Virus record (IMG/VR): IMGVR_UViG_2529293216_000013 | Reading direction: 5' to 3' (one strand) | From: a virus | Taxonomy: Duplodnaviria; Heunggongvirae; Uroviricota; Caudoviricetes | Length of the DNA stretch: 35,441 bases | Part shown: piece by piece, positions 7,328-8,265 of the stretch | Numbering within the stretch: the stretch's first letter is position 1 | Layout of the letters: every line of letters begins with the position of its first letter | Position numbers and translations under genes: made by a program | Notes under the pieces: model-generated | Told to the model about the DNA's origin: nothing | The model's input: the letters and a program-made list of their open reading frames with translations, nothing else | The model's database searches: none

Positions 7328-8265
7328 CCCCTGAATCCTGCCGGGATCTGGCTGTAGTCCACGTTGTCGTAACTGGCTTTGAAGTACGGGTCCTCGCGTT
7401 TTTCGGTGTACGTGCTGACGGACGGCGATAAGCGCAGGGAAAGCTCATCCCATTTTTCCCGCAGCTTCGACGGGCTGAGCACGTTACGGCACCAGAACGG
7501 ATCGCGACTGACGCGGCTGTACATCTCGCAGATTTGTTTATGAGTACGACCATCCTGCACACACATCAGGCGAATTTCGTTTGCCCAGGCTGTCCAGTTC
7601 GGTTCTTTGGGACGAACCACCTCGCCGTCACATTCGGCGGCATGCTCGTACAGGGCGATGATTTTTTTCCAGAGCCACTGTGCACAGGTCAAATCATCCT
7701 GCGTCCCCCACTGGCGCTTTTTAGGGCTGAATACAACCGCATCAGGATGGCGAGTTAAAAAATCCTGTTCATCCGTCTGCGTGTCCGGTTGCGAAGCGTC
7801 CGGACGAGAAGGTTTTTTATCTGACGGATCATGTTTTGATTTTACTGACGGATCCCCGCCAGATTCTGACGGGTGAAAACCCGCTTTTTTGCCAGATTTC
7901 GACGCATCAAATTTTGACGGGTCAGATTTTGATGCGTCAGATTTTGACGGGTCAGAATCTGACAGTTGAGAAAATGCCGCTGCCTGAAGCTTCGCAACGT
8001 TAAGCTGATAAACATTCGACGCATTGCGGTTACCCTGGCGACGCGCCTTACGCGTTAACCAGCCTTCTGCTTCCAGCCGTGCGATAGCCGTTCTGACGGT
8101 GCTCATCCCCGCGCCAATCTGGCGGGCAATGGTTTCAATTGATGGCCAGCACACACCTTCGTCATTACTGAAATCAGCCAGGCGGGCCATAATTGCCACG
8201 CTGGATAACTTCATGCCTGACGCAGCGCAACCATCCCATACATAGCCGGTTAATTTAGTGCTCAT
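7324..8265 (-). CDS. Replication initiator, lambda O-like (N-terminal wHTH, internal repeat region)
   Basis: 313 aa; N-terminal wHTH (SIETIARQIGAGMSTVRTAIARLEAEGWL); low-complexity SDSDPSKSDASKSDPSKFDASKSGKK encoded by tandem DNA repeats; position after cro/CII-like genes. Confidence 0.7.
   Translation of the reverse strand: MSTKLTGYVWDGCAASGMKLSSVAIMARLADFSNDEGVCWPSIETIARQIGAGMSTVRTAIARLEAEGWLTRKARRQGNRNASNVYQLNVAKLQAAAFSQLSDSDPSKSDASKSDPSKFDASKSGKKAGFHPSESGGDPSVKSKHDPSDKKPSRPDASQPDTQTDEQDFLTRHPDAVVFSPKKRQWGTQDDLTCAQWLWKKIIALYEHAAECDGEVVRPKEPNWTAWANEIRLMCVQDGRTHKQICEMYSRVSRDPFWCRNVLSPSKLREKWDELSLRLSPSVSTYTEKREDPYFKASYDNVDYSQIPAGFRG
7815..7970. repeat. Iteron-like tandem repeats (about 15 bp unit, roughly 8 copies) inside the O-like gene: candidate origin
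   Basis: Repeated GATTTTGACGGGTCA-like units (tctgacggatca, ttactgacggatcc, agattctgacgggtg, agatttcgacgcatca, aattttgacgggtca, gattttgatgcgtca, gattttgacgggtca). Confidence 0.55.

What the first reader, a model, noticed from the sequence alone, without database searches (positions are those of the whole stretch)
7815..7970. Iteron array inside the O-like initiator gene that also encodes a pentapeptide repeat
About eight copies of a ~15 bp unit (GATTTTGACGGGTCA-like) lie in the middle of the O-like gene, as ori-lambda iterons lie within O. Because the unit is 15 bp, the repeats also encode a low-complexity SDxSK pentapeptide linker, so the same sequence serves as origin DNA and interdomain linker.
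Basis: partly seen in the sequence, partly recalled or inferred. Interest (0 to 1): 0.5.

Follow-up and report, generated by a model that had tools for sequence, protein, structure and literature searches.

The report
Probable replication-origin repeats inside prophage initiator gene
A cluster of short DNA repeats inside a prophage's replication-initiator gene is real, is conserved as DNA rather than as protein, and is most likely the phage's replication origin, an arrangement already known from phage lambda; the same repeats were published in E. coli K-12 as binding sites for a host regulator.

Summary
The O-like gene (7324-8265, minus strand, 313 aa) carries five head-to-tail 15-bp units (7897-7971) and three spaced related sites (7867-7876, 7846-7855, 7822-7831). 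They encode SDPSK/SDASK/SDPSK/FDASK within a predicted disordered linker between a winged-helix domain and a lambda-O-like C-terminal domain.

Selection acts on the DNA:
- Third-codon positions are invariant at 16/21 sites in the distal block, against 13/94 in the winged-helix domain (p=5e-8).
- Wobble bases inside an 11-mer, TCARAATCTGA, are conserved; those in the 4 nt between are not.
- Two independent compensated frameshifts keep one site's DNA while changing its peptide.
- In 78/78 evaluable viral contigs the array follows its cognate DNA-binding domain, whichever C-domain is attached.
- Distant homologues carry different repeats at the same place.

This supports a lambda-type intragenic iteron origin, but initiator binding and origin activity are untested. 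The AT-rich element is weak (70% AT against 78% in lambda), and no P, DnaC or DnaB gene is present.

There the same repeats were published as the strongest genomic binding site of the host regulator SrsR/YgfI. I class it as a new member of a known kind, of moderate interest.

The parts
7324..8265 (-). O-like replication initiator gene, 313 aa, intact
   Evidence: ORF list. PHROG 391 'replication initiation O-like' over aa 1-313, E 4e-135. 98-99% identical to the O genes of Shigella phages SfII and SfIV and of several E. coli phages.
7972..8265 (-). Coding region of the N-terminal winged-helix DNA-binding domain (aa 1-98)
   Evidence: Pfam HTH_36 over aa 23-70, E 4e-11. AlphaFold2 gives helices plus a beta wing at 70-73/85-88, with block-mean pLDDT 64-87. 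Foldseek hits are MarR/ArsR-type winged helices and plasmid initiator N-domains 4pql and 4pt7.
7783..7962 (-). Coding region of the low-complexity, predicted disordered linker (aa 102-161), which holds nearly all of the repeated sites (the first tandem unit starts just upstream)
   Evidence: pLDDT <50 for residues 102-161. The junction to alternative C-terminal domains lies just after it.
7426..7776 (-). Coding region of the helical C-terminal domain (aa 164-280), homologous to the C-terminal domain of lambda O
   Evidence: BLASTP against lambda O gives E 7e-26, with the clearest similarity at aa 182-277 against lambda 187-270. PHROG 2357 covers aa 172-304. AlphaFold2 helices span 164-278.
7892..7971 (.). 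Tandem array of five 15-bp units. On the + strand it contains five 11-mers, CCAGATTTCGA, TCAAATTTTGA, TCAGATTTTGA, TCAGATTTTGA and TCAGAATCTGA, starting at 7892, 7907, 7922, 7937 and 7952. They are separated by 4 variable nt.
   Evidence: Per-position information content comes from 76 distinct units. Four of the 11-mers are the published SrsR boxes of K-12.
7859..7879 (.). Distal site 1: a sixth 11-mer (CCAGATTCTGA on +) plus the core TGACGGGTGA; sense strand reads TTTTCACCCGTCAGAATCTGG
   Evidence: Nearly invariant in lineages whose winged-helix coding DNA is 73-83% identical. The DNA is kept through two independent compensated frameshifts in relatives.
7846..7855 (.). Distal site 2 (sense GGATCCGTCA), contains GATC at 7851
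   Evidence: Conserved in 74 of 78 viral contigs.
7822..7831 (.). Distal site 3 (sense TGATCCGTCA), contains GATC at 7827
7807..7846 (.). Least stable 40 bp of the gene (70% A+T). It is the only candidate unwinding element and it is weak.
   Evidence: Nearest-neighbour scan gives dG -47.0 against a window mean of -53.4 (sd 5.0), the 88th percentile. The lambda control gives -43.0 against -54.6 (sd 3.7) at 78% AT. The segment aligns weakly with lambda's AT-rich region (p about 0.01).
7870..7893 (+). Small hairpin plus T-run (CGGGTGAAAACCCG CTTTTTTGCC), antisense to the gene, between the tandem array and the distal sites
   Evidence: Terminator-like consensus scan. 4 such sites were found in 1.4 kb against 2.0 expected, so this may be chance.

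Best explanation
The repeats are the initiator-binding sites (iterons) of a lambda-type replication origin that lies inside the initiator's own gene.

Inferred mechanism:
1. Dimers of the N-terminal winged-helix domain bind the dyad-like 11-mers TCARAATCTGA. There are six of these, five at a 15-bp pitch, plus the related GATCCGTCA sites.
2. The resulting nucleoprotein complex destabilises the adjoining A+T-richer, GATC-containing stretch (about 7807-7855).
3. The lambda-O-like C-terminal domain brings in the host helicase. Which partner it uses is unknown, because no P, DnaC or DnaB gene is present.

Because the pitch is 15 bp (five codons), the same DNA is translated as an (S-K-S-D-x)n / SDxSK stretch of a disordered interdomain linker. 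That linker tolerates changes in length and even in reading frame.

Shown here: the repeats exist, they are under DNA-level constraint, they travel with the DNA-binding domain, and they sit in a disordered linker.

Inferred, not shown: binding by the initiator, origin firing, and the site of unwinding.
For: 1. The gene is an O-like initiator with domain order winged helix, disordered linker, lambda-O-like C-domain.
2. DNA-level constraint. Across five lineages, third-codon positions are invariant at 16/21 sites in the distal block, against 13/94 in the winged-helix domain (Fisher p=4.7e-8). The flanks are not conserved: 1/10 upstream and 7/19 downstream.
3. Internal control within the unit. 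Wobble positions inside the 11-mer carry 1.28-1.46 bits. Wobble positions in the 4-nt spacer carry 0.59-0.62 bits. The residue before Asp varies among 8 amino acids, yet its codon ends in T in 68 of 76 distinct units. The Ser codon in the repeat is TCA in 19 of 23 distinct units (TCG in the rest; third base A in 61 of 76 in the larger set), against 13% TCA among Ser codons elsewhere in these genes.
4. Two independent compensated frameshifts, in phiP27 and in Klebsiella CP184406, keep TTTTGACCC(T/G)TCAGAATCTGG. The peptide changes from FDPSESG to VLTLQNL or VLTRQNLG.
5. Module behaviour. phiNP shares nt 2-479 of the gene and mEp460_4F5 shares nt 443-942. In 78 of 78 evaluable IMG/VR contigs the array follows the cognate winged-helix domain; 52 have the O-type C-domain and 26 have other C-domains.
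6. Homologues with 35-45% identical winged-helix domains carry different dyad repeats at the same gene position. The same tool recovers lambda's four annotated iterons as a positive control.
7. Phages with this gene are viable: SfIV was isolated and characterised as a phage (PMC3851460), and further phage genome records hold it at 98-99% identity. An origin must therefore exist, and no other repeat array was found in 5000-11000 or by Tandem Repeats Finder anywhere in the window.
8. The array binds protein specifically in vitro, although the protein tested was the host's SrsR (PMC9181523).
Against: - There is no binding or origin-mapping data for the initiator.
- The candidate unwinding element is weak (70% AT, 88th percentile), and no good DnaA box lies nearby.
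- The 15-bp pitch puts successive sites about 1.4 helical turns apart. Lambda, Min27, RAH1 and Vibrio D75 use 20-24 bp.
- No P, DnaC or DnaB homologue is present for the O-type C-domain to work with.
- Variants that lack most of the tandem array exist and are common. P0035 is on 128 contigs, and it is unknown whether those elements replicate.
- The block GGDPSV..DPS is also conserved as peptide (D138, P139 and S140 are invariant), so some of the constraint may be on the protein.
- The conserved block sits at a mosaic junction, where recombination could homogenise DNA.
Confidence: 0.62

Rival explanations
1. The tandem array is primarily an operator array for the host LysR-type regulator SrsR (YgfI). 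This regulator activates transcription of the genes downstream (yfdONMLK in K-12). The array's position inside the O-like gene would then be incidental, or would serve host control of the prophage.
For: PMC9181523 reports the strongest gSELEX peak of the K-12 genome here, 1206 against 288 or less elsewhere. It also reports a 66-bp DNase I footprint over four 11-mers, multiple gel-shift complexes, and yfdO/yfdK mRNA that falls in the srsR mutant and rises on SrsR overexpression. Those four boxes are the same sequence as window 7907-7962, differing in one base. The conserved part of the unit is exactly this 11-mer.
Against: SrsR does not explain several observations:
- the distal GATCCGTCA sites, which are the most conserved DNA of the linker;
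- the strict linkage to one winged-helix type across Escherichia, Klebsiella, Citrobacter, Yersinia, Salmonella and Pantoea elements;
- the presence of other repeats at the same position in homologues with other DNA-binding domains.

The footprint needed 10-40 uM protein. The published consensus ends in GC, whereas all copies in the array end in GA. In K-12 the gene is a 5'-truncated remnant, so the 'spacer' status there is secondary.

This reading is compatible with the origin reading as a second use of the same DNA.
Confidence: 0.12
2. The repeats are only a slippage-prone coding repeat for a flexible SDxSK linker. The DNA has no cis function, and its uniformity reflects recent amplification.
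For: - The linker is predicted disordered.
- Copy number changes in steps of 15 bp: 3-8 units in viral contigs, up to about 10 in protein homologues, plus deletions.
- Tandem repeats homogenise by slippage.
Against: - The non-tandem distal sites show the strongest wobble conservation (16/21 against 13/94).
- Within a unit, only the wobble bases inside the 11-mer are conserved. Homogenisation would affect all positions alike.
- Two compensated frameshifts keep the DNA and not the peptide.
- The residue before Asp varies while its last base does not.
Confidence: 0.05
3. The conserved DNA at the 3' end of the linker is a module-boundary sequence. It would be kept similar because it is where homologous recombination joins DNA-binding modules to alternative C-terminal modules. 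It would not be a protein-binding site.
For: - The junction between shared and unshared parts of the gene falls at gene nt 443-479, right after the sites.
- At least three C-domain types are fused there.
- Deletions occur between repeat copies (P0017).
Against: This does not explain the repeated dyad-like motif, its tandem amplification, the type-specific repeats of distant homologues, or the specific protein binding seen in vitro. Recombination needs pre-existing similarity and does not create a repeated motif.
Confidence: 0.08
4. The function lies in secondary structure of the single strand, either mRNA or unwound DNA. Possible roles are translational pausing between domains or a hairpin signal.
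For: Region 7815-7975 folds far better than shuffles: z -4.7 as single-stranded DNA (+ strand) and z -5.7 as sense RNA, with 0 of 200 shuffles as stable in each case. Lambda iterons are also discussed as hairpin or cruciform formers (bioRxiv 10.1101/2025.04.02.646746).
Against: The stability follows automatically from an array of dyad-like units. The pairing partners change with copy number among relatives. No covariation test was possible.
Confidence: 0.05

Closest known systems
ori-lambda within gene O of phage lambda and lambdoid or Stx phages (four to six iterons plus an AT-rich tract in the middle of O)
   Same: - The origin repeats lie inside the initiator gene, between the DNA-binding domain and the C-terminal domain. 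They span 31-47% of the gene here and 39-48% in lambda.
- The repeats have dyad character and are translated as a hydrophilic linker.
- The C-terminal domains are homologous.
- The DNA-binding domain and its repeats are inherited as one module.
- In-frame deletions between repeats occur (for lambda, PMC6022878 abstract).
- The number of iterons differs among relatives: 4 in lambda and 6 in Stx phages (PMC7466680).
   Different: - The N-terminal domain belongs to another Pfam family (HTH_36, with no Phage_rep_O hit).
- The units have a 15-bp pitch, not 18-19 bp units at 20-24 bp.
- The AT-rich tract is much weaker.
- There is no P gene or any helicase-loader gene.
- Two conserved GATC-containing sites are present, with a phage Dam gene close by.
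SrsR (YgfI) boxes in the yfdO/yfdP region of the E. coli K-12 cryptic prophage CPS-53 (Kobayashi et al. 2022, PMC9181523)
   Same: It is the same DNA. K-12 carries a remnant that starts at nt 234 of this gene and is 98.6% identical. Its four published boxes are the tandem units at window 7907-7962.
   Different: The paper treats the site as an intergenic operator of a host regulon. It does not connect it with an initiator gene, iterons or an origin. In the window the array lies inside an intact gene.
Intragenic repeats in other HTH_36-type O-like initiators (Stx phage Min27 O, mEp460/SfV/ST64B replication protein, ZF40 gp14, Klebsiella RAH1 O, Vibrio D75, Pseudomonas LESphi3)
   Same: They have a homologous winged-helix domain (35-45% identity), followed at nt 260-410 by 3-6 dyad repeats inside a low-complexity linker.
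   Different: The repeat sequences differ with each DNA-binding domain type. The pitch is 21-24 bp in most and 17 bp in LESphi3, not 15 bp. Several are followed by P-, DnaC- or DnaB-type genes.
Iteron origins of theta plasmids (RepA, pi, TrfA and pSK41 RepA types)
   Same: Direct repeats are bound by a winged-helix initiator. Foldseek lists pSK41-type initiator N-domains 4pql and 4pt7 among the many winged-helix matches.
   Different: Plasmid iterons are usually outside the rep gene, at a pitch of about 22 bp, next to a clear AT-rich element and DnaA boxes. None of that is seen here.

Membership tests
Lambda-type intragenic origin (ori within an O-like initiator gene) | Several repeated initiator-binding sites located inside the initiator gene, between the DNA-binding and C-terminal domains | tested here: met
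   Eight related sites lie at gene nt 295-444, in the disordered linker. The position is equivalent to lambda's annotated iterons.
Lambda-type intragenic origin (ori within an O-like initiator gene) | The initiator is homologous to lambda O | tested here: met
   The C-domain matches by BLASTP at 7e-26, and PHROG 391 'O-like' matches over the full length. The N-domain belongs to a different Pfam family, HTH_36, so homology is shown for the C-terminal half only.
Lambda-type intragenic origin (ori within an O-like initiator gene) | An AT-rich unwinding tract adjacent to the repeats (about 40 bp, near 80% A+T in lambda) | tested here: inconclusive
   The best segment is 7807-7846: 70% AT, +1.3 sd, 88th percentile. 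Lambda gives 78% AT and +3.1 sd with the same scan.
Lambda-type intragenic origin (ori within an O-like initiator gene) | A partner P-type helicase loader encoded next to O | tested here: not met
   The downstream genes are PerC-like, Dam, LexA DNA-binding-domain-like and RusA. tblastn with P, DnaC and DnaB queries finds nothing with E below 0.02 in the 35 kb.
Lambda-type intragenic origin (ori within an O-like initiator gene) | Replication starts at this site and needs the repeats in cis | not testable with these tools
   This needs origin mapping or ori-plasmid assays.
Iterons (initiator-binding direct repeats) | Repeat sequence is specific to, and inherited with, the cognate DNA-binding domain | tested here: met
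   In 78 of 78 evaluable viral contigs the array sits behind the cognate domain. Mosaic relatives share the N-domain and repeats together. Other domain types carry other repeats.
Iterons (initiator-binding direct repeats) | Conservation of the DNA itself, independent of coding | tested here: met
   Third-position test, p=4.7e-8. Wobble bases inside the 11-mer are conserved and those outside are not. Two compensated frameshifts keep the DNA.
Iterons (initiator-binding direct repeats) | Bound by the initiator protein | not testable with these tools
   Only binding by the host protein SrsR has been published, for the K-12 copy.
Iterons (initiator-binding direct repeats) | Spacing near two helical turns (20-24 bp), placing the sites on one face of the helix | tested here: not met
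   The pitch is 15 bp for five sites, then 33, 21 and 24 bp. Lambda and four homologues show 20-24 bp. This is a usual feature of iterons, not a strict requirement.
SrsR (YgfI) box array | Sequence identity with the footprinted boxes TCAaATTTTGa, TCAGATTTTGa (twice) and TCAGAgTcTGa | tested here: met
   The window + strand reads TCAAATTTTGA, TCAGATTTTGA, TCAGATTTTGA and TCAGAATCTGA at 7907-7962. The K-12 locus was read directly for comparison.
SrsR (YgfI) box array | SrsR binding and regulation at this copy, inside an intact gene | not testable with these tools
   The published data are for the truncated K-12 remnant only.
Pentapeptide-repeat protein family (Pfam Pentapeptide, beta-helix fold) | Match to the family profile and a folded right-handed beta-helix | tested here: not met
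   There is no Pfam hit in the linker, and the region is predicted disordered. 'Pentapeptide repeat' is true only in the literal sense of a 5-residue period.

The most novel reading that the evidence does not exclude
The array may be a shared docking site where the phage initiator and the host stress regulator SrsR/YgfI meet on the same 11-mers. Replication or induction of this very common prophage family (2104 of 5426 complete E. coli genomes) would then be tuned by the host's stationary-phase state. The conserved GATC sites and the adjacent phage Dam gene could add methylation control. On this reading the published 'SrsR regulon' consensus is largely a picture of a phage origin.
Probability: 0.15. 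Interest if true: 0.6.

Novelty: new member of a known kind. Interest (0 to 1): 0.35.

Why it matters
It gives a concrete, testable origin for a replication module found in about 39% of complete E. coli genomes and in the Shigella serotype-converting phages SfII and SfIV. No origin was described for this module in the papers searched here.

It reinterprets a published host-regulator target. The strongest SrsR/YgfI site in E. coli K-12 is a remnant of a phage initiator gene's repeat array.

It also offers a clean natural example of DNA that is constrained as a binding site while being translated. The wobble-position pattern and the compensated frameshifts show that the constraint is on the DNA.

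The module works without any P, DnaC or DnaB gene. How an O-type C-domain recruits the helicase in that case is an open question.

Origin repeat arrays in O genes have also been reported as places where the Lamassu defence protein LmuB accumulates during lambda infection (bioRxiv 10.1101/2025.04.02.646746). Knowing where such arrays lie in prophages is therefore useful.

Tried and rejected
- A strong AT-rich unwinding element was looked for near the repeats (GC profile and nearest-neighbour scan, with lambda as control). Only a weak one was found. The really AT-rich stretches of the window lie at 21-25 and 32-34 kb, far from the replication genes.
- DnaA boxes: only one-mismatch matches within 7000-9000, none inside the array.
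- Promoter scan of 7300-8700: none found. Terminator-like sites are close to the chance number.
- Helicase loader or helicase genes: tblastn with lambda P, RAH1 P, Min27 P, two DnaC-like proteins and ZF40 DnaB found nothing.
- Literature. The SfIV genome paper and the Stx 'Eru' replication-region paper do not mention iterons or an origin for this module. A search on replisome-organiser origins gave only general background.
- A sequence search of the PDB gave only marginal winged-helix hits. The fold search gave generic winged-helix matches.
- A pairwise codon comparison of the C-terminal halves was misaligned and is not used.
- The 30-bp super-period seen by Tandem Repeats Finder (alternating CCG and GCA centres) is not kept in relatives, so I do not treat it as a feature.
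- Local DNA similarity to lambda's AT-rich and right-arm region is only marginal (p about 0.01 with a mononucleotide shuffle).
- The distal-block consensus script failed on a wrong pattern. The unit statistics from that call are valid.
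Full report
OBSERVATION. The repeats are real and lie where stated. Tandem Repeats Finder reports 7893-7956 with period 15 (4.3 copies, 81% matches) and period 30. The repeat finder gives families at 15-nt spacing, a further copy at 7857-7879 and a pair at 7816 and 7840. The quoted unit GATTTTGACGGGTCA is exact at 7940-7954, and with up to 3 mismatches it occurs nowhere else in the 35 kb. The core pattern TGAYNNRTCA occurs 7 times in the window, 4 of them in 7822-7954. Shuffles give 2.8 for the whole window.

The gene is on the minus strand (7324-8265, 313 aa). Read in the sense direction there are five head-to-tail 15-nt units: TCTCAACTGTCAGAT, TCTGACCCGTCAAAA, TCTGACGCATCAAAA, TCTGACCCGTCAAAA and TTTGATGCGTCGAAA (window 7897-7971). 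They encode SQLSD-SDPSK-SDASK-SDPSK-FDASK. Three spaced sites follow, with cores TCACCCGTCA, GGATCCGTCA and TGATCCGTCA at window 7867-7876, 7846-7855 and 7822-7831. 'About eight copies' is therefore fair, but only five are tandem.

THE GENE. It matches PHROG 391 'replication initiation O-like' over its whole length (E 4e-135). It has a Pfam HTH_36 winged-helix match at aa 23-70. Its C-terminal half is homologous to that of lambda O (BLASTP 7e-26, clearest at aa 182-277).

An AlphaFold2 model built from 40 homologues gives three parts:
- a winged-helix domain at aa 1-98;
- pLDDT below 50 for aa 102-161;
- a helical domain at aa 164-280.

Fold search returns only generic winged-helix proteins, including plasmid initiator N-domains.

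The surrounding genes are cI-, cro- and cII-like on one side and PerC-like, Dam, LexA-DNA-binding-domain-like and RusA on the other. The gene is 98-99% identical to the O genes of Shigella phages SfII and SfIV and of several E. coli phages. Window 250-11315 matches the early regions of SfII/SfV-type phages.

WHAT IS CONSERVED: DNA OR PEPTIDE? Four tests point to the DNA.

1. Third-codon positions. Five lineages were compared: the window, Citrobacter phiNP, Klebsiella KpF5, E. coli Flotzy and Yersinia YeP1. Their winged-helix coding DNA is 73-83% identical. Third-codon positions are invariant at only 13 of 94 sites in the winged-helix domain. In the 63-nt block that holds the three distal sites, 16 of 21 are invariant (Fisher p=4.7e-8). 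The 30 nt before the block (1 of 10) and the 57 nt after it (7 of 19) are not conserved.

2. An internal control within the tandem unit. Across 76 distinct units from 78 viral contigs, the wobble bases inside the 11-mer TCA-AAA-TCT-GA carry 1.28-1.46 bits. The wobble bases in the four nucleotides between 11-mers carry 0.59-0.62 bits. The residue before Asp is any of S, F, T, A, I, P, Y or V, but its codon ends in T in 68 of 76 units. In the earlier set of 23 distinct units the repeat's Ser codon is TCA in 19 (TCG in the rest), against 13% TCA among Ser codons elsewhere in these genes. Homogenisation by slippage would not discriminate between positions in this way.

3. Compensated frameshifts. 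Two independent cases keep the DNA of distal site 1 while changing its peptide. Phage phiP27 reads GTT TTG ACC CTT CAG AAT CTG (VLTLQNL). A Klebsiella chromosome (CP184406) reads GTT TTG ACC CGT CAG AAT CTG GGG (VLTRQNLG). The usual reading is F-D-P-S-E-S-G. One viral contig shows homopolymer-length noise in this region (L059). However, neither compensating change is a simple homopolymer-length change: a two-base loss within GGTGGGG in the Klebsiella case and a one-base gain in a diverged stretch in phiP27.

4. The data-driven unit is the dyad-like 11-mer TCARAATCTGA separated by 4 variable bases. This is equivalent, in another register, to the palindromic core TGAYNNRTCA. There are six such 11-mers, at + strand starts 7859, 7892, 7907, 7922, 7937 and 7952.

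COMPARATIVE ANATOMY. The N-terminal domain and the repeats behave as one module. phiNP shares gene nt 2-479 and then has a different C-domain. mEp460_4F5 shares nt 443-942 only. At least three C-domain types follow the same linker.

A scan of IMG/VR for two adjacent units returned 80 loci. In 78 of them the array is in frame behind the cognate winged-helix domain, 52 with the O-type C-domain and 26 with others. The other two are cut by contig ends.

Tandem copy number in those 78 loci is as follows:

| Tandem units | 3 | 4 | 5 | 6 | 7 | 8 |
|---|---|---|---|---|---|---|
| Loci | 1 | 3 | 59 | 8 | 5 | 2 |

Protein homologues reach about 10 units. Some have lost most of the array through deletions between copies; P0017 and P0015 are examples, and P0035 is on 128 contigs (DNA of P0017). 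A subtype with a 56% identical DNA-binding domain, followed by a DnaC/IstB-like gene, keeps the same core at the same 15-bp pitch.

Homologues with 35-45% identical winged-helix domains all carry their own dyad repeats at the same place in the gene. These are Min27 O, mEp460, ST64B Sb42, ZF40 gp14, RAH1 O, Vibrio D75 and LESphi3. Their pitch is mostly 21-24 bp. The same tool recovers lambda's four annotated iterons (spacing 20, 24 and 23) as a positive control. The architecture is thus family-wide, and the repeat sequence changes with the DNA-binding domain. This is what is expected of cognate binding sites.

WHAT IS WEAK OR MISSING.
- The least stable 40 bp of the gene, 7807-7846, lies at the 3' end of the site cluster. 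This is the same side as lambda's AT-rich tract. It is only 70% A+T and 1.3 sd from the window mean. Lambda's tract is 78% and 3.1 sd in the same scan.
- A local alignment pairs this segment with lambda's AT-rich and right-arm region, but only at p about 0.01.
- No convincing DnaA box is nearby.
- The 15-bp pitch places neighbouring sites about 1.4 helical turns apart, unlike the roughly two turns seen in lambda and most homologues.
- No P, DnaC or DnaB homologue is present anywhere in the window, although the C-domain is of the lambda type that binds P (the P-binding role is from established knowledge of lambda).
- In several relatives the O-like gene is followed directly by a Dam-type methylase.
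- The two distal sites each contain a GATC (7827 and 7851), kept in 74 of 78 contigs. This suggests methylation control but does not show it.

A PUBLISHED EXPERIMENT ON THE SAME DNA. The element is in 2104 of 5426 complete E. coli genomes. This includes K-12, where the cryptic prophage CPS-53 keeps a remnant starting at nt 234 of the gene, next to yfdN. The old gene name is yfdO.

Kobayashi et al. 2022 (PMC9181523) studied the host LysR-type regulator SrsR/YgfI and reported the following:
- Its strongest gSELEX peak in the K-12 genome (1206, against 288 or less elsewhere) lies in the 'yfdO/yfdP spacer'.
- A 66-bp DNase I footprint there covers four boxes: TCAaATTTTGa, TCAGATTTTGa (twice) and TCAGAgTcTGa.
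- SrsR has positive effects on yfdO and yfdK mRNA.

Reading the K-12 locus shows that these boxes are the tandem units at window 7907-7962, with one base different. So the array is a proven protein-binding element, but for a host protein. The paper does not link it to an initiator gene or an origin.

SrsR cannot account for three things. These are the distal sites, the linkage to one DNA-binding domain type across several genera, and the type-specific repeats of other homologues. I therefore treat SrsR binding as a second, possibly opportunistic, use of the DNA, and not as the explanation for it.

MECHANISM. My best reading (confidence 0.62) is a lambda-type origin inside the initiator gene.
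1. Winged-helix dimers bind the 11-mer dyads and related sites.
2. The complex opens the neighbouring A+T-richer, GATC-containing stretch.
3. The O-type C-domain recruits the host helicase by an unknown route.
4. The same DNA is translated as a disordered linker that tolerates length and even frame changes.

The existence, conservation and linkage of the sites are shown here. Binding, firing and the unwinding site are inferred.

The region also folds unusually well as a single strand (z -4.7 as DNA and -5.7 as RNA). That follows from an array of dyads. It may matter for structure-sensing defence systems, because Lamassu LmuB accumulates at lambda's O-gene iterons during infection (bioRxiv 10.1101/2025.04.02.646746).

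NOVELTY AND SCORE. Origin repeats inside an O gene that double as coding sequence are textbook lambda biology (PMC7466680). Databases already call this gene 'replication protein O'. The array itself has been published as SrsR boxes.

Three things are new here:
- the identification of these particular sites as the probable origin of a very common prophage module;
- the sequence-level evidence that the constraint is on the DNA;
- the link between the K-12 SrsR target and a phage origin remnant.

I class it as a new member of a known kind, with some unusual traits: the 15-bp in-frame pitch, the weak AT tract and the absence of a helicase-loader gene. Interest is 0.35.

Noticed in passing
window 7907-7962; L019 (E. 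coli K-12 BW25113) 2502-3209: The tandem units are the published SrsR/YgfI boxes of K-12 prophage CPS-53 (PMC9181523). The K-12 copy is a remnant that starts at nt 234 of the gene, so the array was described there as an intergenic spacer.
   Followed up: yes
window 1-35441, especially 5471-8265: There is no P, DnaC or DnaB homologue anywhere in the window. The O-like gene is followed by PerC-like (6833-7327), Dam (6180-6866), LexA-DNA-binding-domain-like (5857-6183) and RusA (5471-5860) genes. How an O-type C-domain recruits a helicase without P is unexplained.
   Followed up: partly
window 7827 and 7851; Dam gene at 6180-6866: Distal sites 2 and 3 each contain a GATC, kept in 74 of 78 related viral contigs. 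A Dam-type methylase gene lies just downstream of the O-like gene here and in most relatives looked at (KpF5, P7641, 733R5, phiNP, YeP1, L023). This may indicate methylation control of the site.
   Followed up: partly
L012:1811-1851 (mEp460), L015:1808-1848 (RAH1): A second short repeat, GAACCAGTCA (three copies, encoding EPVxEP), follows the type-specific repeats in homologues with different DNA-binding domains. The matching peptide RTSHSxEPVxEP recurs in Min27, ZF40, Vibrio D75 and LESphi3. It resembles the GATCCGTCA distal sites of the window. It might be a shared element of these origins or a conserved peptide motif.
   Followed up: partly
window 8255-8613: Two overlapping same-strand ORFs in different frames both have family support. 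One is 8275-8613 (112 aa, PHROG 1170, annotated in SfII). The other is 8255-8434 (59 aa, PHROG 1343, annotated as DUF4222 in RefSeq E. coli); it overlaps the start of the O-like gene by 11 nt.
   Followed up: no
window 7870-7893 (+ strand): A GNRA-type hairpin followed by a T-run (CGGGTGAAAACCCG CTTTTTT) lies antisense to the O-like gene, between the tandem array and the distal sites. The number of terminator-like sites in the region is close to chance.
   Followed up: no
window 10259-10273 and 10281-10295: A perfect 15-nt direct repeat, TTGCATATCTCGCAA, occurs twice 22 nt apart, just downstream of the cI-like repressor gene (9512-10204). It is a possible operator pair.
   Followed up: no
window 7815-7975: The region folds much better than shuffles as a single strand: DNA + strand -28.6 kcal/mol (z -4.7) and sense RNA -53.2 kcal/mol (z -5.7). 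This is probably a by-product of the dyad repeats.
   Followed up: partly
L042 (IMGVR_UViG_2667527666_000002) and L062 (IMGVR_UViG_2906160580_000012): In L042 the array stops after three units and runs into unrelated sequence that looks like an insertion-element end (not checked). In L062 the array at a contig end is followed by the antisense of a winged-helix coding region, which may be an inversion or an assembly artefact.
   Followed up: no
window 21500-25500 and 32800-34400: These are very A+T-rich stretches (40-bp windows of 80-90% AT) outside the part of the window that matches SfII/SfV-type phages (250-11315). Their content was not examined.
   Followed up: no
L009 (phage phiP27) 1429-2355: Gene L17 of phiP27, annotated 'unknown', is a homologue of this initiator (62% identical winged-helix domain). 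It has the same type of repeats and is followed by DnaC-like and helicase genes.
   Followed up: partly
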